A stretch of DNA of 44,892 nt, filler included, from Jimgerdemannia flammicorona (Eukaryota): assembly GCA_003990765.1 (NCBI GenBank). It is 2 parts of 2 records of this genome, joined end to end, with 100 filler letters (N's around TTAATTAATTAA, not from the genome) between each part and the next. Parts side by side here need not be neighbours in the genome. Positions count along the whole stretch, not along the records: positions 1 to 22,396 come from RBNJ01001286.1; 1 more part is not named here. One strand, 5' to 3'. Position 1 is the first letter of the stretch. The number at the start of each line of letters is the position of its first letter. This document shows, in pieces, positions 1-44,200 of the stretch. A program made the translations under genes and the position numbers. The notes under the pieces were generated by a model. The model saw only the letters and a program-made list of their open reading frames with translations. It had not been told where the DNA came from and ran no database searches.

Positions 1-274
1 AAAAAAAAAAAAAAAAAAAAAAAGCTTATCATTTTTTATACTTAATATTAGTTATCAATTATAAATAAATATAATATAAATAAGATATAAAATAAAATAA
101 AATAAAATAAATTCTATTATAAATTGCCTTTTTATTTATTTATTTATAATCAAATTCTAGAAATTCTATATTTGATTAATTTGTACAGTAAACTGTTTTG
201 AACTGAAAACAAGATGATGTCTGTACAGATGGGGGATTAAAATCAGATTTAGTATTCAGAAATGGAGAATTCAC

Positions 275-1088
275 TTAATGGTGCTTGTGCAGGCTTGCTG
301 CAGGCGTGAGATGAGGAACGGGTCCTTGCTCGGGCAACCCGAGAACAGCCCTCAGACGGACGTCGGACTCGTCGACCTTGCCCTTGCTATCGTCACCCTG
401 CGCGATCGAGATACCGGCCGACGCCATCAAGATGGCGATGGTAAACGCCTGAGCGTACATACGGGCTTGGACGAGCTTCTGCTGGGCGTTCAAATACTTG
501 TTGGAGAACGTGTAGGCTAGCGAGCCAGCCAATGAGGCAACCCATGAGACACCTGGTGAGGATAAGAATCGAAGTTAGGTGGTGGAATTTAAAGCGGGGT
601 GGATTGAATATTCGAAAAGTAGCGTACCGATAATAGTCCACCGATTGTCGTTAAGGTAGTCGAGGACCTTGTCCTTGGTGGTTGGGCCACTTACGTAGTG
701 GCGAGCGGCCTTATCCCCGAACTCATTTTCGTCCATATAGCCCAGCTGAGTCTTTTCATACTTCTCACGCGCCGAGTCGGCACCGAACAGCATGCCAGCC
801 GAGGTACCTGAAGGACAAAGAAAGATCAGGTTTGCGCATAGGTTCGGCCAGTTACAAAGATCTTTGGCACATTGAATTATAGCACATGGTTCCCGAAGTT
901 CACTTACCACTGACGACGAACAAGCTCTTGTATGCGGGCTTCAACGACTGGAATGCTGGGGCCTTGCCGACGGCGATTGTGGCAATCAGACCAAGACCGA
1001 GACCGGCAATGGCACCCTTGAAGCCACCATTGATGGTAGCCTTCATGTGGCCCTCTTCTTGAGCTTTGGTGAGTTGACGGTTGGCCAT
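275..1088 (-). CDS. RCF2: Respiratory supercomplex factor 2-like (HIG1-domain) mitochondrial membrane protein; 3 exons (1088-908, 807-628, 552-275)
   Basis: Spliced translation MANRQLTKAQEEGH...GTSAGMLFGAD...DYLNDNRWTIIG/VSWVASLAGSLAY...QKLVQARMYAQAFTIAILMASA. The QKLVQARMYAQ motif is typical of HIG1/Rcf2. GT-AG introns keep the frame. Confidence 0.85.
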
Positions 1089-8660: not shown

Positions 8661-10339
8661 CTACCCAATCGTCTCCCGACCGCCCATCCAACCCCTCAGT
8701 ACCTCTGGTATCACGACAGTGCCGTCGGCGCGCTGGAAGTTCTCGAGCACGGCGATGATGATGCGCGGCACCGCGATTGCGGTCCCGTTCAGTGTGTGCA
8801 CGTACTCGAGGGCCGGGCCTTGCTTCGCCCCCGAGGAGGAGGTGGGGCGGTACCGGATGCTAAGCCGTCGGGATTGGTAGTCGGTGCAGTTTGACGTGGA
8901 CGAAATCTGGGTTGTAGATAGGATTTGTGTATTGGCGATGGTTGATGCGGGCGGAAAGGGTACAGCATGAAATGCAAATAGTGAGATAACTTGAGATTGG
9001 CTCACCTCGCCCCACCCGTTGCGACCGGGCATCCATGCTTCCATGTCATACTTGCGGTATGCGCTCGCGCCGAGCTCTTGAGTGGGCATGTCAAGCACCC
9101 TTTAATTTCGTAATGTATAAGTACATCAGATTGTGATTGAACTCGTCACACGTATTCCAAAAGTGAAATACATTTGGGCACGCCTCACCTAAAACAAAGG
9201 CCCAGCTCGTCAAAGATGTTCTCCTGCAATGTCCTAATCTCCTCCATCATTACCTCGCTCCCCTCCGGTGTCGTCAACGCAAACAACTCGACCTTAGAGA
9301 ACTGGTGCACGCGGTACAACCCCTTCGTATCGGCGCCCCTCGCCCCAGCCTCAGCCCTGAACGCCCTTCCGAACCCCACCATCTTCACTGGCAGCTCCCT
9401 CTCGCCTAATACCCGCTTTGCATACATGCCCGCCAGCGGCACCTCTGCCGTCCCTGCCAGGCACATACGCGATGCCTCAGACCCCTGTGTCGCCGTGCTT
9501 ACGTCGTAGATCTGCGACATCTCCCCTGCCCGCGGCTGGAACCCGCACGCGTGGGTCATCTCTGTCCGCACTACGTCAGGCGTGATCACGGGCGTAAACC
9601 CGCAAGACCGTGCCTTGCTCATCGCGTATTGAACCAGTGCGAGCTCGAGAAGAGCCGCGTCGTTCTTGAGGTAGTAAAAGCTCGTGCCGGAGACGAGCGA
9701 GGCTGATTCCAGATCCAACAGGTCGTGCCGCCGCGCGAGCGTCACGTGGTCCTGAAGTTCAAACCCAGCCGTTTCGTTTGTGTTAGGGGTGCCGACGATC
9801 TTGAGAACTCGGGCGTTCGGTTCAGGGCCGATGGGTGCTGATGAGTGGGTGTCGTTAGGGATCTGAAGGCCCTGGCGTAGCAAGAATTCCTCGGTGGTGG
9901 CGAGCTCGGCCTCGGCGGTCTGAATCGTATCCTTGAGACGCTTGCCTTCCTCGATGAAGGGTTGACGTTCTTCGGGTGAGGGGGCATTTTTAGAGAGTGC
10001 GGAGAGCTCGTTACGACGACTGCGTAGGCCGTTAAGCTCGGTGACGAGGGAAGTGTATCGGGCGTGGAGCTGAACGACAGCGCGTATGTCGACACCCTTG
10101 AAATTGCGGTCACGGATGTTGAGGGCGATGGCATCGACGTTCTCGGCGAAGTGTCTGTAATTGAGGTGGGGCTTCAGGAGGGCGTGGCGAGGTAACGGTG
10201 GCGTGGGTTCCTCGTGGTGGCTCTTTTCGGTGCAGTTCGCGCGTCTCGAGGACGTAATGGCGGGCTGAATGATTGTTCTTGAGTATGAGAGGCCAGCGAG
10301 GCTTTTGGTTGTGAGGCGATATGCCGACGCGTTGAACAT
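8661..10339 (-). CDS. Seryl-tRNA synthetase, mitochondrial type (DIA4/SARS2-like); 3 exons (10339-9189, 9099-9006, 8906-8661)
   Basis: Basic N-terminal presequence, coiled-coil arm, and class II motifs [15 protein letters not shown]...[53 protein letters not shown]. Confidence 0.92.
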
Positions 10340-10396
10340 TTGTCGTCTTGTCGCGTGCTCGCGTGCGGTGGGGATGAGTAGATGACGTCACTCGGC

Positions 10397-10483: not shown

Positions 10484-12152
10484 ATGGAACACAACTCCGG
10501 CCCTTTCTACACAAACTCCGTCCTAGATACTTTCAGGTTTGTTCTTCATTTTCAATTTCCCCCCCACCTGCTGCCCCCATTATGTCACCCCCCAACTAAT
10601 ATGTCCTGTCCGAAAACAGTTACACATGGTCCATCAAAAACTTTCCCCTCGTGCGCAAGATATACCCCACCGGGAAGGATCTGCTCAGCAACACCTTCTG
10701 GTGTCCGCCTCCGCCCGAGAACGAGAAGGGAGATCAGGGATCGGGGTTCAATCACGGAAGGGTGGATCGGAGGAGGCCGTTTTCTTGGGTGTTGAGGTAT
10801 CTCGTCATGTTTATCCCATGTGTACATCGACCAGGATCTAGCTCATGCAGCCGATATCCCTTATTTCCTCTAGTCTCTATCCATCTGGCAACACACATGC
10901 AGGCGACCACGTCGCCTGCTACCTCAAAGCGATTCCAACCGATGATGAACAAAGCCGCCCCTGGAAACGCGACAACATCAATCTCGTCCTCGAAGCCTAC
11001 GCCGTCGTCCCTTCCTCTTTTGAAACCGCCACCCCCCTCGACAATTACGGCGAGGACATCCCCGCGGACTCGACCTGTCTCCCGAACCGGAAAACCTCGC
11101 TGACCGTTGGCAGCATGCGCAACAACGCCGTCCGATTTCGCCCGCTCCCCAACGACGGCCAGATACACACCATTCTCATCGAGCGGTGGTCTGGCGGTGA
11201 GATTGCTTGGGACAGGCAGATCCTCGACTGGGGGCGAAGAAGGTTCTTCCACCAGAGCCGGCTGCCCAAGAATCCTCACTCGGACGGCCGAATCGAGCCG
11301 TACGACCTCCTCATCCGTGTGCACATCCTCATCAATTCCCCGCTCTCGGATGCTCAACCTGAGCAAGATCCCCTCGCCAGTTACGACATCTCAAGCCCCT
11401 CCCGATCGCCTACCCCTATCTCCGAAATCCCTGCCCACCCAGCCATGACCACACTCATCTCCGCAACCAACCTTCCCACCACCGTCCCTCCCACCCCCAC
11501 CCCTACCCCCACGCCCGTACCCCTAACTCTCGACCTTACACCTGCAGTCGACGACCCGCGCTTCAGCGATATCATCTTTGCCTTCGACGCGGATCCGCGT
11601 CCCCTCCGCGCGCATCGCGTCATCCTCGCCTCCCGCTCCAACTACTTCTCCAACCTCCTCTCCACCGCCTGGGCCGAAGACACGCGCGCCACGGTCCAGA
11701 TTGGCGGCGGGATGCGCTACGAAACCTTCCGCTCGGTCCTACACTACCTCTACTCGGGCCGTCTCCGCGAGGGCGAGGACGGGTGGGACGCCTCGCTCCT
11801 GCACGACGTATACCGCGCAGCGGATATGTACGGGATGGAGGGGCTGATGACATGCGCGGTGGAGCGACTCGCACGTGTGAGAGTCGATGAAGAGAACTGG
11901 GAAGGGCAGATGGTGTTTTCTTTCGAGTGGGGGGTTGAAAGTGTCAGGAAGAATGTCGTGCGATGGATGGTGGAGAATTGGGGAATCGTCGAGAGTGGGA
12001 ACGGGTTAAGTAGGGTGTTGGCCACGGGGAATGTCGCGTGGTTAAAGGAGGTGTTGGTCCAGGTGGGCATAGTAGGGAAGGTGAATAGGGGACCTGAGGA
12101 TAAGAGAAGGGAGAAGATGGTGAAAGACGGGAGGAGAAATACTTTTGGGTAG
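10484..12152 (+). CDS. MATH-BTB/POZ (SPOP-like) cullin-3 adaptor; 3 exons (10484-10536, 10620-10796, 10874-12152)
   Basis: MATH-like strands FSYTWSIKNF...SNTFW...WVLSLYPSGN...DHVACYL. BTB motifs FSDIIF...LRAHRVILASRSNYF...FRSVLHYLYSG...AADMYGMEGL. Confidence 0.8.
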
Positions 12153-13731: not shown

Positions 13732-16700
13732 TCAGGTCGCCCTCGCATGGAATTTAATCACAACGGATTCCCTTACCCCAGATCTCTCGACAAAGGCATC
13801 CGCCGACACCTCCGTCGCTCCAAATTGCATGTCCAACTTGATGGCCTTGTTTTGTAGCGAATGGTCACCTTTAAGAAGTTGTACTTTCTGCTCCATCTTG
13901 ACGTACGCCTGCCTGATTCCATCGCTGGAGTCGGCGACATTGAAGACCTCGCAGTACGTATTGCACTCATCCGATTGACACAGCTTTACGAGCTCTGCGT
14001 TTAGATCGACGTTCCCCGCAATCGCCAGGATCATGCGGAAGTTGGGGACACTTGGGTTCTTGAGGATAGTGGATAACGTGGAGAATTCGATTTTGGAGTC
14101 GTTATCTTCGCCGTCGGTGGACACTAGGAGGATGTTCTGATATTCTTGCTGGTCCGAGCTGTCATCGCGCGATCGAAGACACTGGATTCCTTCAACGATG
14201 GCGTCATTCAAGGCGGTGAAGCCGGACATCTTGATTAGTATTCGATTTGTATCCGTGTCGTGAGATAGGCCAAAACCAATGGGTGTAACCGTAAAATCGT
14301 CAATGTGCATTTCGATGTCATTTGAATACGGTTGAATGGAGCTATGATTGTAAAGGGGTGGGTATGAATGAGTGGGTTGTTCAGCGTTTAGTGGAGTGCA
14401 ATGTATACAAATGGAATTCAAGTAAACCTGAGTGTTTCGACAGTCGATGAAAATTTGATGAGACCGACTTCATCGTTCTGTGAAAGTTTTTCGCACACCA
14501 ATTTCAGCCCTTCTTTGGAACTGTCGATCTTGTCGTCCTCGCTCATGCTGGCGCTTACGTCTTGAACAAACAAGATTCGTACAGGGAGTTGTATGGTGTC
14601 GTCTTCGGCGGGGGGTTCTGCATTTCTGGAGAGCGGCACTTGTAACGTAGCCGCAGGTCGCATATCAGGAAGCATGTACTTCTGATTTGGTAAATCGGTT
14701 GTGTACAGTTCCAGTGTGGCATACTCTTGCGCCGTGCTGATTGGAATGAATCTATTCGCACGAACAACAAAAATGACGTAAGGAGTCACTTCGATATCGC
14801 AATCAGGAGACGGTAGACAAGAGATATATGAAGTCCACATACACGGTCGATATAACTTCCTCGATGCCCACTTGTTGATCCACATTGACAACAGCGTGAA
14901 ATAAATTTTCCGCATAATACTTTTGTGCATTCTGATATATCGAGTAAACGGGTGGTCAAATTAGCGATATGTAGATACGGTTTGATTGCTTCAACAAATT
15001 CCACATGTATTAAGAGAATCCACAAGCGTGGCGATATCGACCGTTTCGCCATTTATGATAATGACGAGAGCTGAAAACTACGAACCTCGTTCCATTTCTT
15101 TGCAGCTTCTCCAGCCGGATTGTCAGGAGTCCAAGGACCGGAAGTTTTGATCCCATAAGCGAGGCGAGAACGACGGCTACAGATGAATCTATTGATTTTT
15201 GTTTTCGTGGTTATTGCTTGTTTACATGTTTTTGGGACAAATGACTAATTGATACAGTTCTGAATTCTGTGCATAAATTGAACTTAACTACTTACTGCGG
15301 AAACTTTCCGTACAACGCAGCGCCCTTGACAACAGCTCCACCGGCATCACTGGGTCGAAACATCTGCACACGGGACTCGAATCTTTCCTTGGCCTTTGTC
15401 CACAGGTATGCGCTATCTGAGAACCCTCCGACGAAGAACATCTTGTCAATCTTGCAATCGCCGACATTATTGGAGCCTCTTTGCCTAGCTAGGGCCTTAG
15501 CGCTGCGGTCCAATTGAAGTTCGACCAAGTCCAAGGTAGCGTCAACGACGGTATTGAACATGCTGAAGAAATCTGTGGCGGTTAGATCGATTTGGTCAAG
15601 ATCTTCATCCTCATCACTGTCACTATCAAAGTTCGGGTGGTAGCTGGAAGTGTCGTTCTTTTTCATCAATCGGCGCAATTTAATCGGAGTTTGGATGGAT
15701 TCGTAGGTGTCAGGATTTCCAGTGAAATTACGCTGTGAGGTTGAGGTGCCAAAATTCGAAGGACATGTATAATTAACAAATACGTTGCCAAATGTTTCGT
15801 TTTTTTTTTTTATAGCAAAAATCATCGTTATATATACCTTGAGTTCCTCCCAACATTTCATTACTTTCAGCCAATCCGCCGTGTGCAAAGTGCGAAGTTC
15901 ATCTATGTTTTGCCTACCGCACTTGGTGTTTAGAAATTTAATGAAAGCATCATCGATAAATGTGGATCCACAAGATTTGCCACTGCCATGAGATATCTCA
16001 CGCAAGCGTTGAGCGCCGGAATCTGGGTCGTGAAGGACTTCATGAGCAGTCTTCAAAATGGCAAGGTCAATTGACCAGGAATTAATAGTCGTTTTCAGTA
16101 TTCCATATAGACGAGAGAAGCAGCGATCATCTCTTACCAGATCGATAGTTCCGCCACCGGCATCTACCACCATGAAAGTTTGCCCCGGTACCAGCAAGTT
16201 CTGCTGTGATTGTTGGCAACAGTACATAGCCGCGGCTTCCGGCTCCAAAACGATATTCAGTCGATCCGAGTTATTTTTATCCTCTTCAGAAACCTGGCAC
16301 ACGGTTTGGGCATTTTGACGATTAGTTGACTGTTATTTCGTTAGATTCTATAGTTTAACCAAATAGGAAAAGCCCCTCTTCCTTACCAGTTTCGCTATTA
16401 CCGCGGCCTCTCTCATGTCTTGCTTCGCCTTTTCTGACCACATCGCAGGTACGGTCAAGAACCATACCACGTTCTCCTTACTCACAGTGTCACCCCACTT
16501 CGTGTCGATATCCTTCAAAATGACCTTATATATATGGTGCAAATAATCACCGATTACTTTCAATGCATCGAGACCTTGCGGAAGGGGTGGCAAAGTCGGT
16601 GCAACCTCCTCGTCAAGATAGAGCTTAAAGCGATCAAGATATTGATGACCTGGGTCAGCCCTATTGCTCATACTGTTTTTCCTTGCTGTATCGCGTGTTG

Positions 16701-17158
16701 GGTAATGGTGATAGGATGAAAACCGATTTGTAAAGAGTTTCGAGGGCAAAGTTAAACCATAGGACAAAAACGAAGTGTATAAATAGTACTGATTATATAC
16801 CACTATAGCCCCAGCTCTGAACGGAAGGACTTGATGTGTTGGAATCACACTTGTATCGGAGAGCTGTAAGATTCTTGGGGTATTGGGCAGGCTGGTCCGG
16901 CCATGAATACTTGGACTCGATGATGTTGGAGGAGTCTCCAATATGCACCTGTTTATGTTGAGGCGTTAGTTGCATTTTCTCGTATGATGAAATGAAAATG
17001 TTCGCCAAGTAAAACCACAGCCACGATGCTCCGACGCTTACCATCCCGTACCCCGAGTGAGTAGTTCCAAAATCAATCGCGACGATAAGTCGTGCTTGGA
17101 GGCCGAAAACTGGCTGGGTATGCGTCTGGCTTCCCTGAGACGGCATGAAGCTGGCCAT
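13732..17158 (-). CDS. HSPA12-type atypical Hsp70 with an inserted von Willebrand factor A domain; about 10-11 exons
   Basis: Actin-like ATPase motifs IVAIDFGTTHSG, FLTVPAMW, LEPEAAAMYC, VVDAGGGTIDL, CGSTFID, FVGGFSDS, AVVKGAALYG, SRRSRLAYGI. vWA motifs ILFVQDVSASM, GFTALNDAI, ILLVSTDGEDNDS. C-terminus LDMQFGATEVSADAFVERSG. All segments can be joined by GT-AG introns in frame. Confidence 0.8.
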
Positions 17159-18157
17159 ACTGTATGGATTATCTCCTAAACTTTGGAGGATACAAATGAA
17201 TATTTCCGTATGTATCATGATGGCTTCTCCGCCGGTCTAGTCTTGGCAGCATCCTAGAATACTGGACTATACTGCCGATGATAATACATACGTAGTTTCT
17301 GAATACTCGAGTATAGGTCGTCAAAAGGTTATTCCGAGTAATACTGTGTTGTAAATGAAGGGCGAACTTGGTGGGCAACAAACTACAGGAAGAGATATGC
17401 AACGGATTGGTATCTTTTCCCACCACTTTGTTTGTACATTCCACCAATGTCAGATGATTGATTGCATGAACAAAGCCTTTGTCAACATTTTCGCGCCAAA
17501 CCGGAAACTGCCAAACCAAATATACAACTTTACTTGATTTGAACTATTGCGATCACAACACAGATGCTGCGAGGCACGGTTCTATCATCACATCATTATT
17601 ACCACAAAGCATGAGAATATTTGGTGTTGGGCACATTGCTAGCGTTGAAATGTTGGATTGCTATGCATGGGGATCATCGGCAAGGATCGGGGCTTCTGCA
17701 GGTGCAGGGAGTCTCCTTTTAAGGTTCGTCGAATGCGGGGTAGTATTCCCAATCTGGAATATGGAATATCGCAATCGAATCCCTCAACTTCGGACCGCCG
17801 CAGTTTCTGCTTGACTCCGAGTAAGGATTCTTACTGAACTGTTCGTGTCAGTGTGCGCGAGTTATCGTCTTGGCTGAACACAATTCTTGAACACATATCT
17901 TTCCTATTATAGGTGCAAGCAACCAACTGCCAAACCAATTCAGTAAGCCACGAGCTCTTACTGCTGCGCCGCCGCCCGTGCCAAATGTATGACAATGATC
18001 TCCTCCTATCCTGACCCCGCAGACTCGTCACCCGCCTATTATTGTCGGAGGACAAGATTCAGGTTTGTGGTGGATTAGGACATACCTCAATACTTGGAAT
18101 CCACTTTTTCTTTTCGTACGTTATTGTTCATCACACCCCAAACGCGAAGCTCGTAAA

Positions 18158-22396: not shown

Positions 22397-22496
22397 NNNN
22401 NNNNNNNNNNNNNNNNNNNNNNNNNNNNNNNNNNNNNNNNTTAATTAATTAANNNNNNNNNNNNNNNNNNNNNNNNNNNNNNNNNNNNNNNNNNNN
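22397..22496. other. Assembly gap/linker (44 N + TTAATTAATTAA + 44 N)
   Basis: A symmetric N pad around a 12-mer with stops in all six frames; artificial. Confidence 0.95.
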
Positions 22497-25568: not shown

Positions 25569-28500
25569 CAAGGGACTTAGAGCAGAATGTTCAGAACTAT
25601 GGGGGCTTTATCATCAGAGGTCAGAATGTCTTCAAAGGAGATGAGGTTCACGAATTTGTCATCATCATTGTTGTCATCACATAGGTCATGTGTCTCATGT
25701 ATGTCATGTATTTCGCATGCTTTGATGTCATGTGGGATGACATCATCACTGATGACATCATCACGTTCAGCGGCGGAAAGGAGGTCTGGAGCTCTCCAGT
25801 CTATGAGGTTCTCTTCCACAAAATAGTGGGGTCTTGGGGAGGTCTAACCTGGATGCTTGGGCCTTAGAATACTGAGATCAATCTTTACAGGAATTGGTCT
25901 GAGTTGTCCTGAAGGATAGGATGCCAGAAGTCTTCTACTTTATCACTATTGAGGGTGATAGTGGACTGGGCTTCTGTAGCCACCCTGGCTTCTAGTGCAT
26001 TGATACAGCAGGATGACAGGTCTCTGAAGTCTGAGACTCTAACATACTCCAAGTTGGGGATTGACCATGGTACATGCCTGAAGATCTGATGGATCTTCTT
26101 AGCTGTCCTCATTTCACATATATCTATGGGAGTGACATCTTATAGCTCTTGAGTGCTGGCCTGTGGGAACTCCTGGTAGAGGAGGTTTCCTATTTCATAC
26201 TCCTGCCACATTTGGAGGCATTCAGTAGCAATGGTGATCCTTGTTTCCATTTTACAGTGGTAGAGGATATAGTGATAAGAGTCACCAGTACTCAGGTTGA
26301 TACTAGGAGTCCTTCTTAAGCAGGTTCTCATGGCTCTTCTGATGTCTTGGAACATCTTTTCTTCAACCAAGGTGCCTTAGTGATTCCTTGACCTTGAGGT
26401 TTGGCAGGTAGCAGGCATTTCATTGGTAGTGAGTCTTTGAGCTATTTTGGGATTGGTGGGTCTTGTTGATTGCTGTTACTGCAGTTCTTTGATTCTTCTT
26501 TTATATTTCTCAAGATGCTTATACTGTGGTCACAATGACTCACAGTTGGTCATTGTTGCTCATCTCATATACTGTATGATCTTCTTGTGCTCCAATCTAG
26601 TAACTTACAAGGAAAGACTGTCTCCTGTACTGATGTCATCATTCTGGGATCACTATTACATCTTCCTTCTGAATAAGGATCTTCTCGAGCATCTTTATTC
26701 ATTAGTCCAGTCTTGAAAAATTTGCTGATCCCATAACCTCTGGCAAGGGGTCAAAAAGTGGTGTTTATGGGCTGACATCTTCTCTTTGTATTTTGGCATG
26801 ATGGTGAAGGGTCACTTCCTTCATATAGAGTAAGGGCCTGATTCTGATCTTGACCAATCAGTTGATGGTTCAAACTCCTCTGGCTTCGAAAGTCTCATAG
26901 ATGAGTAGTTGCTGGTGCCATATCTCTTAGAGAATGGTCCAGACAGATAGCCTACTGGTTATGGGACATGCTGTTATGATTCATGGACTAGAACCTTGCA
27001 GGTGGTCATCATGTTTTGCTTCTCTTATATAGGTTTGTGGTACTTCTTGAGTCTGTTCCTATGTATCATGATAGGCAGTATAGTCCCTGAGATTTTTCTA
27101 AGCCAGAAGGTAGTTCTCTTGATATCTTGCACATAGAAGGGTCCTTCTCATTTGGGCTCCAGTTTTTGCAACCATGAGGCTTCTACCATATTTCGATATA
27201 GTAGAACCTTTTCTCCAATTCAGATGGGTTCTAGGGTCTTGTGATTTTTTTCTGCATTCTTCCTTATCAGCGCTTATGACTTGATAATGTAATCTTCTGC
27301 CTTCTTTCTGATTTAGTGTAGTCTCCGGGTTTCTGCATCGACCCATCTCCAAGTTAGATCTAGATTTGTGGCTGAGGTTCCATCAGAATCTTCTTCTCCA
27401 AAGAGCAGTTCTCTTGGGGTAAAGTGTGTGCTCTGTGACCATATGTCTTATAGGATAGAGAGGGCAGTTGGGAGATAGTTATCCCAATTCTCATATGTCT
27501 CTGAGATCTTTGCTAGGATGTTCTTGAGGGTCTTATTGATTCTCTCTGTCTGTCCATTTCCTTGAGGGTGGTACATGGTAGTCTTGATGTACTGGATCTT
27601 GTATTTCTGATATATTATCTCATGGAATCCATTGACAAATTCTGTGCCATGGTCTGTTGTGATTTGCTTTGGTGTCTTGTAGTGACAGATAATTTCTCAG
27701 TACAAGAAGTTAGCTATAGAGAGGGCATTGGCTTCTTGTAATACTCCTGCTTCTATCCATTTGGTGAAGAGGTCTACAATAACTATAATATAGTAGTTTC
27801 CTGATAGTGTTACTGGTAGTAGCCCAATGATATCCATTGCAATGTGGTGGAAGGGGATAGGCTCAATTCTTGATGACCTGGGTGCCTGGTCTTGCTGATC
27901 TTATTTCTGTTTTTGGTACTTGTCACACTCTTTGACAAATTGGCATAGGTCTTCTTCTATCTTGGGCCACCATATGGTTCTTCTTGCTTTGTTATATGTA
28001 TTGGTTCCTCCTAAGTGTCTTTGCTCGTGTACTTCCTTCATTACTTGATACTTCTTGTGTTCAGGTATTACTAGCTTTCCTCCTTTTCTGAGTGTAGTAT
28101 TGTCTAGTTCAAACTGTTTCCAAGTCCAGTTGATGATGGTGATTGTCCAGGGTTCGAGGTGGTTGAGTATCTTCTGCTGCCCAAGGTAGCTGATTAATCC
28201 ATAATATAGCTCCTTATTCATGTTGAATAGTCTTGATGGGGTGTGTTTTGGGGTATCCTTGAGAGTGTATCAGCATTGGTGTTAGTTCTTCCTGAGCAGT
28301 ATTTGATAGTACAGTCATACTCTTGCAGCCTGTAGATCCATCTGATATATATTCCTTTAGAGTTCAGAGTGTGGAATAGCCAGGCAAGAGCAGAATGGTC
28401 TGTTTGAATAGTGAAGTGTTTCTCAGCTAAATAGAGTGGAACTTGTCTACTGCCCAAACTACTGCTAAGCATTCAAGCTTGTATGACTTGTAGTTCTGTT

Positions 28501-29734
28501 CTGCTCTATAGATACCTCGGCTTGCATAGGAGATGACATATTCATGTCCATCTTTCTTCTGAGCTAGGACTGCTCCAAGTCCTATGGCACTTGCATCTGT
28601 CTGCAGGATGAATTCTAGATTCCAATCTGGTCTTCTGAGGATAGGTACTTGGATCAACCTGGTCTTGAGTTTATTGAAGATTTCTTGGCATTCCTTAGTC
28701 CATTCGAATTTTGTTTTCTTCTTCAGTAGCTCGTAGATAGGTACTATAATGTTGGAGTATCCTTTGATGAATCTTCTGTAGTAGCTGGCCAGTCCAAAGA
28801 AGGCATGGACTTCTGTGGTTGTTCTGGGTCCCAGGTAGGCTGCAACAGCCTCAATCTTCATGGGGTCTGTCTGGATTCTGGTCTGATTGATGAGGTGTTC
28901 TAGATAGGTGATTTCTTGAGCTACAAACTTGCATTTCTTGGGTTTGATGTAGAGGCCATGCTCCTTGAGCTTCTTGAGGGCTAGCTGTATGTGATTGACA
29001 TGTTCTCGTACAGTATTGCTGAAGATGATCACATCATCAATATAGACAAAGAGCCATTTTCCAATTTCATTGCTAAAGACTCTGTTCATCATTCACTGAA
29101 AACTTACTGGGGCATTGCACATTCCAAATGGCATTTGCAGGTAGATATAGGTGGCATCAAGTGTGATGAAAGCTGATTTCTCACTAGCATCTTGAGTGAG
29201 ACCAATCTGATGGAAGCCTGAGAACAGATCCAAGGTGGTGTAGTATTTGGCTTTGCTTCCAAGAGTGGTAAGGATTTCTTGAATATTTGGCAAGGGCTGC
29301 CTATCCTTCTTGGTGATGGTATTGAGCTTCCTGTAATCAATACAGAGTCTTGGTGCAACTCTCCAAGCTTGCTTCCTTTCTTCAGGGCAAGGACAATGGG
29401 TGAAGCCCAGGAACTGATAGCTTGCTTGATGATTCCAGCTTCTTCTATTTCCTTGAGTTCTGCTCACAGCCATTCTCTGTAGGCAGGTGGTATGGGTCTG
29501 GCTTTCTGATAGATGGGCTTGGTATCACCAGTGTCAACTTTGTAGTAGTACTTGGGTTCTTGATTGTGGATATCCCTAAAGTCTGTAGCAAGTACTCCTT
29601 CATTCTGGTGCAGGATCTTGAGAAGTTGTTCCTCCAGGGGAAAGTTTTCTCCAATGGTATATGTGTGCTTATTCTGGTCCTTGTCTTTCTTGTGCTTAAG
29701 TTCAGTAATCTTGGTGGCAGTATAGGCTCCTCTT

Positions 29735-30150
29735 CCAGTAGATCCAAAGCCTTGTTCTTCTCTCTTAGTCTTGATAAGTTTGATGGCTTCTATGATCTTG
29801 GGCTTCTTGACTTCATGGATCATCATCTGGCCAATCCTGTCATACTTCTTGACTTTGAATGGGGTGGTGGGGTTGTAATTTCTGACTATGAGGAAGATCT
29901 CACCAGTGTAATCAGGGTCAATTACTCCTCCTTTAACTGAGATTTCACTTTTGGCCAGACTGCTCCTGGTCTTGATAATTCTGGTATGGTTTTCTGGCAA
30001 CTTGACTCCAATTCCAGTGCCAAGTAGGGTGGTAGTCTGTGGTTCAAGAGTAGCATCTTGAATGCTGGTAAGGTCTATTCCTATGGCTCCTTCAGTCTTG
30101 TATTCTGGGATCTTGGCTTTAGGGTGAAACTTCTTGACCTTGAGGGTTAT
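29735..30150 (-). CDS. Retroelement-encoded trimeric dUTPase domain (within pol)
   Basis: Motifs GAIGIDL, RSSLA, GVIDPDYTGEI, DRIGQM and REEQGFGSTG, in the expected order. Confidence 0.92.
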
Positions 30151-31544
30151 GTCTGTTTCTTGTTCCTCCTTATCATCACTGTCAGCCTGAAGCTCTGGGG
30201 GCTGGTCATCTTCTTTGGCTTTCCTTTTTACTTTAGCAGCTTCTTGCTCATGTTTCTGTTGGCAGATTTTCCTGACTTCACTGATAGGACCAGCAGTCAT
30301 TCAGGTATTCAGAGCAGTACATCCTAGTACCATGGGGGCATCTTTCTTGAGGGGTATAGCCATCAATGATCTTGTTGTACCACTGCTCATCTGTGAGCTT
30401 GGGTGTCTTGTTCTTGTTCTTATTCACTGAGTGCATGAAGACCTCTGTGTCCTCTTCATCTCCTTCTTCTATGTCTAGTAGGGCTTCTTTGTGGACATTG
30501 ATAGAGACTTGTACCTTTCTTCCTCTATAGTTGATCTGTATCTTCTAGGCATTGAGATCAATGATGGCCTTGGTCTTGTGAAGCCATTGGTTGCCAATGA
30601 GGATGTCATAGTTGGTGGTGCTTGTAACAATCATGTCTACTGGGATAGTAGTTCCTTCTATCTTGATGGGGACTTCTCATATTTTGCCAAGAGGGGTAGC
30701 TCATGTACCATCTGCTGTGACATAGACCATCTTAGTGGACTCTTCAATGTCCCAACCTAGGTAGTCAATTGTCTTCTTGCTCATGAGACATCCTCCAGCA
30801 TCAGTATCAATGATGGCATCAAAGATACAGTCTTCAATCTGACATGGGGTATAGGCTGATGTCTTGTGCTCGTCTTGGATGCTTTATCTGAGTTTTCAGA
30901 TTCTTCCTGTGTATTGTGAGCTTCTACAATCTTGTACTCTTGATTTTTGGTAGTAGTTGTAAGTCCTACTCTCAACTGCTGTCTGAAGGCAGGGACTTCG
31001 GCTAGTTGTCCAAAAGTAGCATTGACCTTCTGTTCCTTGAGATCCTTGTAGATATCATACTGGTGAATCTTGGTCTTGCACAGCTTCTGTTCCTTCTTGC
31101 TTTTGCTTTCTCCTGAGACTGGAGTAGTGCCTTCAATGATTTGGCAGGCAGCTTCATCTAACTCTATGTCTTGATCAATCTCCTCAGGTTGAGTCTTACT
31201 TTGAATAGTGATAGCTGGGGTCTTCTTTGGTCTTCCAACTGGCTTGCTGTTACTCTTCTTATCATAGGGCTTGGACCAGGTTCTGGTACCTTCAGTAGCA
31301 GGGTAGAATTCAAGCTCCTTGTAGTATTCTTCATCATCAGTATCACCAATCTCCTCAATGACTACTGCATTGATTTGTTCTCTGGTTCTGCTAGCATTGC
31401 TTGGTTGAGCTTTATGTCTTGTTTCAGTCATACAATTTTTTGCATAGTGGCCTTCTTCTCCACATCTAAAGCATGTGATATTGTATTCTTCTATAGTGGC
31501 TGCAAATCTCTATACTGGTCTCCTGTTGGCACTTTGGACTTCTC

Positions 31545-41237: not shown

Positions 41238-41267
41238 ATTGTGATATCCCTACCAACATTATTCAAT

Positions 41268-44200
41268 ATGAACAGTATGACTAGAATCTTTTCTTTGAAT
41301 ATCAATGGGCTAAGGGGGGCAAAACGGCGTAGAAACATTTTTAGCTGGTTGAAGGGTCTGGAGGCAGATCTCTTCCTATTGCAGGATGTGCAGTATGAGC
41401 CAGATGTGGACCTACTGGACTGGACTCGGGAATGGGGTGGGGCGGCTATATGGACAGGGCAGGTGGGCATCCTGGTTAGAAAAGGGATGGGGGACATTGG
41501 GGATGTTGGACATTGGGAGAGTAGGCTGGTATGGGGAGTGTGGAGGAGGCCTGGTTGGAATGCTTTGACTGTTGGGTCGTGCTATTGCCCAGCTGAGAGA
41601 GGGGAGTGCATAGGCTGGATCAAGGACTTGCGTGAGGCAGGGGTCTTGGGGGAAGCTGGGATTAACTGTCTGGGGGGTGACTTCAATATGGTGTGTGATA
41701 ATGTGGTAGATAGGACTGATGGGGGGAGAGGACTGCGAGGTAGAAGTGGAGGGCGGGAGGATTGGATGGAGGTGGAGAGGTTGAGTTCATTGGTGGACTC
41801 AGGGCAACAGTTCTGGGGGGATCGCCAAATCTATACTCATTGGGTGGCAGGACTTGGATCCAGGATCGACTGGGTGTTAACAGCAGAGTGCTGGGGAGTG
41901 GATGTCTGGGCTATGCTGGAGGTGGTTTGGTGCCCATGGTCCGATCACTGGGGGCTAATAGGGAGTGGGAGATTTGGGGGAAGTGGGGATGGGCCAGGGC
42001 ATTGGCTGCTCAACTCGTCTCTATTGGAGGATGGTTCTCTATGGACTGATTGGGAGGTGGAGGTTACTGAGAAGATTATTAGATGGCGGGAGCAGGGATT
42101 GGTCATTGGAGATCGATGGAGGAGGCTGAAGTCAAGTGCTCAGCGGTTCTGGGGGGAAGCAGGGAGAGGGAAGAGTGCACAAAGGTGGAGGCGGGTACAA
42201 TGGGCTTCACATAGATTGGGGACACTTTTGGAGAAATGGGCAGGGTGGATAGAAGGTGAAGGAGTAGTGGAGTGGCAAATTCAGCGGATAAGGAAGGAAG
42301 TAGAGGAGCTGAAGGAGGTGCTACAGAGGGAGGAAGAGAATCGGATAGAGGGAATGGTGGCGAGACTGAGGTGGCAGGGACTGGAGGATGGGGAGCATCC
42401 TACTAAGTTTCTCTCCAGGCTGCTCCAAGCACGGAGGACCAGGCAGCGGTGGGATAGTATCTTGGACAAGGATGGGAAAATGGTGGGGGGTATGCCAGGA
42501 ATACTTGGATTGTTGCGTAATCGCTGGGAGTGTTTGTGGAGCGAGGAGGATGGAGGTGAGGATGCACTGAACATTGAAAGGCAGTTGGAGGACTGGCATC
42601 CGGACCTGGCCCTGGGACTGGGGACACTGGGAGAACCAGTACGAGGAGAGGAGGTGTGTAAAGTTCTGGCCGTGACAAGTAGGGGGACTGCTCCGGGAGA
42701 GGATGGACTCACCTGGGACTTTTGGAAGAGGATGGTCAAGGTGGAAGGGGTCTTGGAGGAGATGACTGCAATGTGTGATGAAGTTATTCGATCTGGTGTC
42801 TGGATTGGGGGTCAGCGCCTGGGACTGGTCTCCCTGCTCTTTAAGGATAAGGGGAGGAGGGAGGATTGGAAGAATTGGCGACCGATCATGCTCCTGGACA
42901 TGGACCGCAAGTTGGTGATGAAGATCTTGGTGAATAGACTGCAGGGTATCGCTCAGCATGTTCTGGGAGTGGAGCAGAGAGGATTTGTTGGGGGTCAGTT
43001 GATCCGAGATGGAACTGCATGGGTCCATGGAGTGATTGAAGGAGCTCGGGCGGCTGGGGTTGATGGCCGGTTGGTGTTTTTGGACCAGGAGAAGGCATAT
43101 GACAGAGTTAGGAGGGTCTGGCTGGAAGGTGTATTGAGGCGTATTGGCATCCCGCTGGAGTTTCGGAGGTCATTAATCAGCCTATTGGAGAACAGTCAAG
43201 CAGCTTTGGTAGTGAATGGGCACTGGGGACTGGAGTTCCTGCTAGGTCGCGGAGTGCCACAAGGGGATCCTTTGTCACCTATTCTATATGCCCTATCCTT
43301 GGAGCCCCTTCTGGACAGGATCCAGCACCATATAGGGGGTTTGGACATTTTGGAGATTAACTGGAAAGTTGGAGCCTTCGCAGATGACATGGTGGTTGGT
43401 CTGGGTTCGTTTGCTGATGTGGAGGAACTGCGCAGGACTGTGGAGTAGTATGAGAGGGGCTCGGGTGCACGACTCAACTGGCACAAATGTGAGACTATGG
43501 TGCTTGGCGAAGGAATAGTTGGCAGCGAAGTAATTGGAACTGTGGTCCCTGCTGGAGAACCTGTCCGGTATTTAGGGATATATTTCTTGGTGTATGGGTC
43601 TCTCCTCCCCCGTGCATGGTGGGAACTGCGGCTGCTGGCGTGGGGGAACATTCTCCTGAGGTGGGGTGGTCGGCATATACATATCCTTGGCAGGAAGGGT
43701 GATGGTGCTGAACCGGTATTGGCTGCCAAAGTTGTGGTATATGGGGTATCATCTGGACTTCCCCCCCTGGGTGGTCAAGCGGCTTCTGAAAATGTCACGC
43801 TCATGGATCTGGGCAGGACGGCGGAGCCAAATTGGCTGGGAGGTTCTGTCACTACCAGTTGACCAGGGTGGGCTGGGCTTGGTAGACTTGGCCAAGCGTC
43901 TACATTGCCTGAGAGCTTGGTGGCTGAAGAGGGCTAGTGAGCTGCGTGGAAGAGAATGGGTGCCACTTATGCAGAGAGTATGGGAAGCTCGGTACTCCCC
44001 CCGTGGCACATCCGGTGATCTGTTGGCACTGGTGGCTCTGGATGGCAGTCGAAAGATGCACTACAAGGGTTTTTGGTGGGGAGTGGTGGATGGTGCAAGG
44101 CGAATAGGGCTGCGATGGAGGGGAGATGAGGGGGAGGAGGAGTGGGGTCCGCGGATGTGGAGATGGGACCGGCTGCTGCTGGGAGGTACTTTGGTGGAGG

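What the first reader, a model, noticed from the sequence alone, without database searches (positions are those of the whole stretch)
13732..14760. vWA domain nested inside the Hsp70 C-terminal beta-domain
Seen: after ...ATLELYTTD...AATLQVPL the protein enters a full vWA domain with a complete MIDAS set (DVSAS, T of GFTAL, D of STDGED). It then returns to IKLDMQFGATEVSADAFVERSG, which resembles the last strands of HSPA12-type proteins (FGxxEIxxxA...TG). Inference: this is an insertion in a loop of the substrate-binding sandwich, not a terminal fusion, placing a metal-dependent ligand-binding module under ATPase control. I do not know this architecture as described. The ORF track splits it into unrelated pieces.
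Basis: partly seen in the sequence, partly recalled or inferred. Interest (0 to 1): 0.8.

Follow-up and report, generated by a model that had tools for sequence, protein, structure and literature searches.

The report
Lidless Hsp70 with nested vWA domain
A fungal gene encodes an HSPA12-like (lidless) Hsp70-type ATPase in which a complete metal-binding vWA docking domain sits inside a loop of the peptide-binding beta-sandwich, a domain layout seen so far only in Endogonales-type fungi and not described in print.

Summary
One minus-strand gene (CDS 17158-13732, 10 exons, 831 aa) encodes an Hsp70-type ATPase domain and an SBDbeta-like sandwich interrupted by a vWA domain with a full MIDAS (DxSxS, T, D). 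It then returns to a 38-aa tail. The tail matches the C-terminus of 51 vWA-less relatives (21.2 bits; 0 of 2000 shuffles reach it).

The Hsp70/vWA junction lies inside one exon.

A family profile aligns to DnaK residues 4-512. This places the insertion in outer loop L5,6, the loop that latches the alpha-lid in DnaK and that this lidless family leaves free.

The same nesting occurs in Jimgerdemannia and Endogone proteins and one metagenome fragment. It was not seen in 93 other relatives whose tail could be scored, nor in 72 bacterial ORFs. Willaertia relatives carry vWA terminally. This scan had noted such terminal fusions in Naegleria, and bacterial Hsp70+vWA clusters exist. The domain pair is therefore recurrent and only the nesting is new.

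ATPase-to-vWA coupling is inferred, not shown.

The parts
13732..17158 (-). Whole CDS, 10 exons, 831 aa plus stop: 17158-17042, 16948-16801, 16685-16387, 16293-16138, 16050-15838, 15732-15296, 15188-15086, 14931-14843, 14751-14428, 14341-13732
   Evidence: Model built from the sequence. All nine introns are seen as CT..AC joints (GT..AG on the minus strand) in RNA contigs. The RNA corrected my first acceptor for intron 3: the intron is 93 nt, not 57.
15325..17158 (-). Hsp70-type nucleotide-binding domain (aa 1-447): DFGTTHSG, LEPEAAA, DAGGGTIDL, VGGFS
   Evidence: The motifs are nearly invariant in 110 relatives. Family profile vs DnaK: E 2.2e-29. Orthologue model vs Hsp70 NBDs: Z about 30. 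The window's own NBD piece gave no Pfam hit.
14628..15324 (-). Interdomain linker and SBDbeta-like strands beta1-beta5 (aa 448-562), ending ...LELYTTD (beta4) ...ATLQVPL (beta5)
   Evidence: CTD profile positions 3-150, E 1.9e-29. Aligned to DnaK beta4/beta5.
14583..14627 (-). N-side connector in loop L5,6 (aa 563-577)
   Evidence: Alignments. It is 8-13 residues longer than in three of the four homologues (P0159, P0160, P0151) and about as long as in P0152.
13873..14582 (-). vWA domain (aa 578-785). MIDAS: DVSAS at 14561-14547, T of GFTAL at 14217-14215, D of STDGED at 14115-14113
   Evidence: Pfam. MIDAS is conserved in all full-length nested homologues. The fold of fragment P0160 has pLDDT 90-95 over the vWA and Foldseek matches to vWA structures. 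Coordinates.
14230..14289 (-). In-frame 60-nt GT..AG segment (20 aa, VTPIGF...ILIK) inside the vWA
   Evidence: Kept in contigs of X1, X2 and X3. Absent from all four nested homologues. Status open: retained or alternative intron, or a lineage-specific loop.
13849..13872 (-). C-side connector (aa 786-793) from the last vWA helix to beta6
   Evidence: The equivalent connection in the P0160 model is 7 residues long.
13735..13848 (-). Tail = SBDbeta strands beta6-beta8 (aa 794-831), KAIKLDMQFGATEVSADAFVERSGVRESVVIKFHARAT; stop at 13734-13732
   Evidence: CTD profile positions 142-184. Shuffle control. Aligned to DnaK Q471-K502 through the family profile. pLDDT 82-89 in the P0151 model.

Best explanation
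This is one expressed gene of an Endogonales-like fungus. It encodes an HSPA12-like, lidless member of the Hsp70 superfamily.

SHOWN:
- The layout is an ATPase domain, then the interdomain linker and beta1-beta5 of an SBDbeta-type sandwich, then a vWA domain with a complete MIDAS, then beta6-beta8, where the protein ends.
- The vWA is therefore nested in outer loop L5,6. In DnaK this loop carries latch residue R467, which binds the alpha-helical lid.
- The layout is conserved, with the MIDAS intact, in at least three full-length proteins of Jimgerdemannia and Endogone and in one metagenome fragment.

INFERRED:
- The vWA is a metal-dependent docking site for an acidic residue of a partner protein.
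- It is held at the rim of the cleft by two short connectors, in the place that the missing lid occupies in canonical Hsp70s.
- Nucleotide-driven docking and undocking of the sandwich on the ATPase domain would move beta5 and beta6. Through the short link to the last vWA helix, this could change MIDAS affinity or the access of the bound partner to the cleft, as in inserted integrin I domains.
For: - Gene and splicing: nine GT-AG joints in contigs of up to four runs. The domain junctions lie inside exons 9 and 10.
- vWA: (orthologues score 38 bits against a cut-off of 23.8). MIDAS alignment. The fold has pLDDT 90-95. Foldseek gives ITIH1 at E 6e-13 and integrin alphaX/alphaM I domains at TMt 0.74-0.76.
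- Nesting: the profile splits, at 15.1 bits for the tail part, and 0 of 2000 shuffles reach the tail's score. In the same alignment the vWA-less relatives run straight through.
- Loop identity: the family profile matches DnaK 4-512 in one stretch. The loop between 'lgeltidl' and 'kvevsmyFG' falls on DnaK I462-P470, by my count on the alignment printed. The passages I read in review PMC8215388 say that L3,4 and L5,6 are the outer loops latched by the lid, with an R467-D540 bond.
- Structure: the P0151 model (NBD and sandwich pLDDT >90, tail 82-89) aligns 455-466 residues with full-length DnaK/BiP, model range 22..796 against DnaK 2..506. NBD-only chains stop at model residue 445. The rmsd is 3.8-4.6 A to ATP-type docked states and about 21 A to undocked ones.
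- ATP-binding motifs are kept.
- Short connectors: 5 and 7 residues in the P0160 model.
- Conservation. The Endogonales clade has SH-aLRT 98.
Against: - Nothing here measures ATP hydrolysis, metal binding, a partner, or any coupling.
- The column aligned with DnaK's catalytic K70 is not conserved in this family (R 17, L 13, K 12 of 110 rows; Arg in the window protein). Hydrolysis may be weak or work differently.
The structures are of orthologues.
- In the full-length model the vWA had pLDDT <50. Its position relative to the cleft and the NBD is therefore unknown.
- HMMER's confidence over the SBDbeta part of the DnaK alignment is only moderate, and VIA-align gives only first and last aligned residues.
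- Terminal vWA fusions in Willaertia show that the pair can work without nesting.
- A vWA-less paralogue (P0122, a partial model) falls inside the nested clade (SH-aLRT 90). The insert can apparently be lost.
Confidence: 0.55

Rival explanations
1. Passive tether. The architecture is as described, but the vWA is only an autonomous docking module that brings the ATPase to a partner or complex. It sits in L5,6 because vWA termini lie close together and this exposed loop tolerates insertions. There is no allosteric link and no lid-like role.
For: Willaertia relatives carry the vWA after a complete tail. Other relatives carry unrelated C-terminal modules such as SH3 (P0138). Bacterial clusters pair HSP70 with VWA. 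The window protein's N-side connector is 8-13 residues longer than in three of the four homologues.
Against: The nested layout with short connectors is kept across paralogues only 37-59% identical to the window protein. The C-side connector is only about 7-8 residues long.
Confidence: 0.35
2. Annotation artefact. The vWA is a separate gene or a chimeric assembly, and the resemblance of the tail is chance.
For: Six-frame ORFs are broken into pieces. Several database models of relatives are truncated or skip exons (P0001, P0002, P0006).
Against: Spliced contigs from four runs cover the junctions. The beta5/vWA junction and the vWA/tail junction each lie inside one exon. None of 2000 shuffles reaches the tail's score. 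The same layout occurs in independent genomes.
Confidence: 0.03
3. Decaying or non-functional copy. The insertion disrupted the sandwich and the gene is drifting.
For: The catalytic-Lys column holds Arg. A 60-nt segment absent from the homologues is kept in the RNA.
Against: The 831-codon frame is open and the gene is spliced and expressed. The ATP motifs and the MIDAS are intact and conserved across paralogues. The Lys column varies in the whole family, not only here.
Confidence: 0.05

Closest known systems
HSPA12-type atypical Hsp70s (animal HSPA12A/B and HSPA12-like proteins of fungi, protists and bacteria)
   Same: The same ATPase motifs, the same SBDbeta-like C-terminal domain ending in the MxFGxTEI...F tail, and no alpha-lid. 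A Branchiostoma 'HSPA12A-like' protein is among the hits. The name HSPA12 and the lidless character are partly recalled.
   Different: Of 155 sequences examined, 93 run through L5,6 without an insertion over 25 aa. Only the window protein, P0151, P0152 and P0002 are split there by about 200 aa.
Heterolobosean HSPA12-like proteins with a C-terminal vWA
   Same: The same two domain families on one chain, with a complete MIDAS.
   Different: The vWA follows a complete tail: CTD profile 1-185 is continuous at residues 391-575 and the vWA lies at 597-759. They sit in a different clade of the tree, so the acquisition was independent.
Canonical Hsp70 (DnaK, BiP)
   Same: NBD, linker and eight-stranded SBDbeta. 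The orthologue model matches the ATP-type docked arrangement at Z 31-34.
   Different: No SBDalpha lid and no disordered C-terminal tail. L5,6, which latches the lid in DnaK, carries a 200-aa domain instead. The K70 column is not conserved.
Inserted vWA domains of integrins (alpha I domain, beta I domain in the hybrid domain) and ITIH1
   Same: A vWA/MIDAS domain nested in a loop of a beta-rich host domain. ITIH1 and integrin I domains are the top Foldseek matches. That the last helix relays MIDAS state in integrins is recalled, not tested.
   Different: The host domain is unrelated and those proteins are extracellular. Here the host is an ATP-driven chaperone-type sandwich.
Bacterial 'Hsp70 family protein' clusters with PF00012+PF00092 (676-721 aa)
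   Same: The same Pfam pair in clusters of at least 50 members. The best cosine score is 0.92 with only 128 shared features, so this is a lead only.
   Different: Their domain order was not examined, because no sequences were available. None of the 72 bacterial HSPA12-like ORFs I could score has a vWA or an L5,6 insertion.

Membership tests
Hsp70 superfamily ATPase domain | Phosphate-1 (DxGTTxS), phosphate-2 (DxGGGTxD), EPxAAA and adenosine (VGGxS) motifs | tested here: met
   AIDFGTTHSG, LEPEAAA, DAGGGTIDL and FVGGFS are present. The columns are 90-100% conserved in 110 relatives.
Hsp70 superfamily ATPase domain | Significant match to the Hsp70 model or to solved Hsp70s | tested here: met
   Family profile vs DnaK: E 2.2e-29. 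P0152 vs PF00012: 30.8 bits against a cut-off of 20.6. P0151 model: Z about 30-34. Against this, the window's own NBD piece gave no Pfam hit and only chance-level PDB hits.
Hsp70 superfamily ATPase domain | Catalytic lysine (DnaK K70) | tested here: inconclusive
   The aligned column holds Arg here with Lys one position on. Across the family it holds R 17, L 13, K 12 of 110 rows. The alignment is local, and the role of K70 is recalled.
HSPA12-type lidless Hsp70 | C-terminal domain ending in the MxFGxTEI...F strands with no alpha-helical lid after it | tested here: met
   The tail matches the profile at 15.1-21.2 bits. The protein ends a few residues after the last matched strand.
HSPA12-type lidless Hsp70 | Closest relatives are proteins named HSPA12-like | tested here: met
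   P0123 (Branchiostoma 'heat shock 70 kDa protein 12A-like', an automatic name) is hit at E 2.3e-13. Orthology to animal HSPA12A/B was not tested.
vWA domain with MIDAS | Match to Pfam VWA/VWA_2 | tested here: met
   (halves: 34.8 and 23.5 bits). (orthologues: 38.1 and 38.6 bits against a cut-off of 23.8).
vWA domain with MIDAS | DxSxS ... T ... D metal-site residues | tested here: met
   DVSAS, the T of GFTAL and the D of STDGED. They are conserved in P0151, P0152, P0159 and P0160.
vWA domain with MIDAS | Rossmann-like alpha/beta fold | tested here: met
   P0160 (56% identical to the window protein) has pLDDT 90-95 over the domain. Its best matches are vWA structures at E 6e-13 to 1e-9. The window's own protein was not folded.
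vWA domain with MIDAS | Metal-dependent ligand binding | not testable with these tools
   Needs purified protein.
Hsp70 SBDbeta sandwich | Eight strands alignable with DnaK 393-502 | tested here: met
   The profile alignment runs through DnaK 512. The structural alignment reaches model residues 791-797 and DnaK 502-506. The P0160 model has three strands after the vWA.
Hsp70 SBDbeta sandwich | Hydrophobic peptide-binding cleft | not tested
   The cleft residues were not mapped.

The most novel reading that the evidence does not exclude
The vWA acts as a functional substitute for the missing Hsp70 lid. It would be an integrin-like, MIDAS-bearing gate mounted on latch loop L5,6. Its open or closed state, and the delivery of its bound partner to the cleft, would be switched by the nucleotide state of the ATPase domain. 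This would be a new way to couple an Hsp70 engine to a specific client. It would also give a first handle on what the SBD-like domain of the enigmatic HSPA12 proteins does.
Probability: 0.2. Interest if true: 0.75.

Novelty: new variant of a known kind. Interest (0 to 1): 0.52.

Why it matters
HSPA12-type proteins are widespread and are expanded in some animals, but to my recollection their mechanism is unknown and no client-binding mode is established.

This family has recruited a vWA docking domain at least twice: nested in Endogonales and terminal in Heterolobosea. Bacterial Hsp70+vWA families also exist. Together these point to partner-specific, metal-dependent docking as a recurring job for these ATPases.

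The nested form puts the vWA on the loop that latches the lid in DnaK. That marks the cleft side of the sandwich as the working face. It also offers a compact natural construct for testing whether an Hsp70 engine can drive an inserted I-domain-like switch.

The orthologues are so far only 'hypothetical' or automatically named 'VWFA domain-containing' proteins.

Tried and rejected
- Searches that found little. The word-based search with the last exon, lengths 'longer', gave no hit at E<=0.001. The search with P0151 residues 455-797 returned only its own cluster. No whole genome is held for this window. Notes near this place: none.
- NBD piece. Pfam found nothing and the PDB search found only chance-level hits. 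This piece holds two in-frame introns.
- My gene model.
- The 60-nt GT..AG segment at 14230-14289. I had taken it for an intron. The RNA contigs keep it, yet all four homologues lack it. It is left open.
- First fold. The vWA of P0151 came out at pLDDT <50, so the model says nothing about how the vWA sits on the sandwich.
- Bacterial relatives. The best 80 loci of 185 confirmed gave 91 ORFs. Of these, 72 have a CTD continuous to the tail, with no vWA, no L5,6 insertion and no extension over 60 aa. Seven were truncated or otherwise irregular. Twelve were neighbouring ORFs without a CTD.
- Neighbouring long ORFs with a GGGT motif. They are YjcZ-like, patatin or a second Hsp70. None is an Hsp70-vWA protein.
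- Literature. Searches for HSPA12 + von Willebrand + fungi (1 paper, irrelevant, listing only), Hsp70 + vWA + conflict systems and Hsp70 + VWA domain + fusion/architecture gave no description of this layout. In PMC7159879 and PMC11090510 I read only the passages around the search terms. They treat Hsp70 and vWA as separate components of bacterial systems, not as this fusion.
- Not run: complex prediction was not used, and no partner was sought.

Full report
THE GENE

The region lies in a eukaryotic, intron-rich gene on the minus strand. I built the exon model by hand from GT..AG sites and reading frames and then tested it against public RNA.

Fifteen runs hold part of the stretch. I laid four of them. 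X3 and X4 are root metatranscriptomes. X1 and X2 are only guessed to be RNA.

Their contigs carry joints whose skipped parts read CT..AC on the plus strand, which is GT..AG on the gene's strand. The skipped parts are 14342-14427, 14752-14842, 14932-15085, 15189-15295, 15733-15837, 16051-16137, 16294-16386, 16686-16800 and 16949-17041.

The RNA corrected my acceptor for intron 3, which is 93 nt and not 57. That removes 12 residues which no homologue has.

A tenth candidate, an in-frame 60-nt GT..AG segment at 14230-14289, is not spliced in contigs of X1, X2 and X3. All four nested homologues lack these 20 residues. Its status stays open.

The resulting CDS is 17158-13732 and encodes 831 aa. Contigs show presence, not absence, and none spans the whole gene. 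However, the beta5/vWA junction lies inside exon 9, and the vWA C-half and the tail lie together in the last exon.

THE DOMAINS

ATPase domain. The N-terminal 447 residues carry the Hsp70 phosphate and adenosine motifs. These are nearly invariant in an alignment of 110 relatives.
- The window's own NBD piece, which contains two in-frame introns, gave no Pfam hit and only chance-level PDB hits.
- A full HMMER search of 1.84 billion representatives gave 1418 hits at E<=0.001, of which the best 150 were listed.
- Most of the 35 hits that I scanned match PF00012.
- One hit is named HSPA12A-like by NCBI.

vWA domain. Pfam finds vWA in both exon pieces and, above its cut-off, in the orthologues. The MIDAS residues DxSxS, T and D are all present and conserved.

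NESTED, NOT TERMINAL

I built a profile from the last 190 aa of the 51 representatives that are 555-600 aa long.
- On the window protein it matches in two pieces: positions 3-150 on residues 423-574, and positions 142-184 on residues 786-828.
- The last 50 aa alone score 21.2 bits. No shuffle of 2000 reaches this; 1474 were scored and the highest was 7.3.

I examined 155 sequences: the 150 representatives, four cluster members and my model.
- 93 are continuous to the tail with no net insertion over 25 aa.
- 16 are split. Four of these (the window model, P0151, P0152 and P0002) are split at this point by about 200 aa. The others are tandem duplicates or minor splits.
- In 38 the tail is not matched; most are truncated.
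- 8 have no hit.

Twelve sequences have extensions of more than 40 aa after the tail. They include three Willaertia proteins with a terminal vWA and one protein with an SH3 domain.

WHICH LOOP

The profile of the 110-sequence alignment matches E. coli DnaK in one stretch, residues 4-512, at E 2.2e-29.

Counting on the printed alignment, the correspondences are:
- The family's 'vsielystd' falls on DnaK AVTIHVLQG.
- 'lgeltidl' falls on LGQFNLDG.
- The following loop falls on I462-P470.
- 'kvevsmyFGrtei' falls on QIEVTFDIDADGI.

The vWA therefore sits in L5,6.

In review PMC8215388 I read only the passages around the search terms. They state that the lid latches onto outer loops L3,4 and L5,6, with R467 bonded to D540.

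HMMER's posterior values in this part of the alignment are moderate, so I looked for structural support.

STRUCTURES

The tool cannot take a spliced window protein, so I folded orthologues.

P0151 (797 aa, 49% identical to the window protein), folded with the 110-row alignment:
- pLDDT is above 90 for the NBD and the sandwich, 82-89 for the tail and below 50 for the vWA.
- VIA-align placed 455-466 residues on full-length DnaK/BiP. The model range is 22..796 against DnaK 2..506, at Z 31-34. NBD-only chains end at model residue 445.
- The rmsd is 3.8-4.6 A to ATP-type docked states and about 21 A to undocked ones.
- These ranges give only the first and last aligned residues.

P0160 (249 aa, a natural fragment covering beta5, the vWA and beta6-8; 56% identical), folded with a 10-row alignment:
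- pLDDT is 90-95 over the vWA, with 5- and 7-residue connectors and three strands after the domain.
- The best Foldseek matches are ITIH1 (E 6e-13) and integrin alphaX/alphaM I domains (TMt 0.74-0.76).

DISTRIBUTION

Nested forms:
- J. flammicorona RUP50017.1 (P0151) and RUS32257.1 (P0152), each with a truncated twin model.
- Endogone sp. FLAS-F59071 P0159 (783 aa, 59% identical) and the truncated P0001.
- One JGI fragment.

The sources name these proteins 'hypothetical' or 'VWFA domain-containing'.

I built a quick tree of 63 rows.
- The rows were 55 representatives of 480-700 aa taken in id order, plus 8 chosen rows.
- Tandem duplicates and very long proteins were left out, and the inserts were cut out.
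- The Endogonales proteins fall in one clade (SH-aLRT 98).
- The Willaertia protein falls elsewhere.
- The vWA-less partial model P0122 sits beside P0151 (SH-aLRT 90). This suggests loss of the insert or an artefact of a poor gene model.

Among the best 80 bacterial loci of 185 confirmed, 72 ORFs are continuous, with no vWA and no L5,6 insertion.

The ESM Atlas lists several bacterial clusters with PF00012+PF00092. The scores are 0.76-0.92 with low shared-feature counts, so they are leads only. Their domain order could not be examined.

This scan had already noted terminal HSPA12-vWA fusions in Naegleria. One of those notes says the pair is confined to amoeboid protists. The Endogonales proteins contradict that.

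MECHANISM

Shown: the architecture, its expression, its conservation, and intact ATP-binding and MIDAS motifs.

Inferred: the vWA docks an acidic residue of a partner in a metal-dependent way. Because it is held by short connectors on the latch loop of a lidless sandwich, nucleotide-driven movement of the sandwich may gate that binding or hand the partner to the cleft.

The plainer rival is a passive tether. Three things keep the coupling hypothesis modest:
- the catalytic-Lys column varies across the family;
- terminal fusions exist;
- there is no confident interface model.

VERDICT

This is a new variant (nested in L5,6) of a recurring but undescribed pairing. Interest is moderate.

Noticed in passing
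window 17180 and about 17291-17320 (minus strand): Contigs of X1, X2 and X4 end at 17180 with loose letters. By eye, these match the window about 110 nt further upstream. This hints at an intron in the 5' UTR, outside the stretch that was laid.
   Followed up: partly
window 14230-14289 (-): An in-frame 60-nt GT..AG segment with a TACTAAT-like site near its 3' end. RNA contigs keep it, but all four nested homologues lack it.
   Followed up: partly
window about 13960-14000 (-), peptide LCQSDECNTYC: A C-x5-C-x3-C motif late in the vWA. It is kept in P0151, P0152 and P0160; in P0159 the first Cys is Tyr. It could be a small metal or disulfide site.
   Followed up: no
window 41238-43448 (+); 28430-31509 (-): Retroelements: a LINE-like ORF with endonuclease and reverse transcriptase, and an LTR-type element with RT/RNase H, dUTPase and a zinc knuckle. 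Strong positive GC skew at 33-35 kb and 39-44 kb.
   Followed up: partly
window 9185-10387 (-); 10842-12152 (+): The neighbouring genes are a seryl-tRNA synthetase and a BTB/POZ protein. They have no evident link to the Hsp70-vWA gene.
   Followed up: no
window 22397-22440 and 22453-22496: Two runs of 44 N each.
   Followed up: no
L023, L034, L037 (Parabeggiatoa, Methylococcaceae, Thiotrichaceae): Bacterial HSPA12-like ORFs with an insertion of about 60 aa in a different loop of the sandwich, between profile positions about 55 and 66.
   Followed up: no
P0021, P0124, P0029, P0090, P0087; P0138; P0035: Some relatives are tandem duplications with two C-terminal domains. One carries a C-terminal SH3 domain and one an N-terminal glycosyltransferase-61 match.
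   Followed up: no
P0002 (J. flammicorona RUS33170.1): The precomputed domain list names PF27033.1. The local Pfam copy reported only VWA_2 for this protein at E<=0.001. I could not find out what PF27033 is.
   Followed up: no
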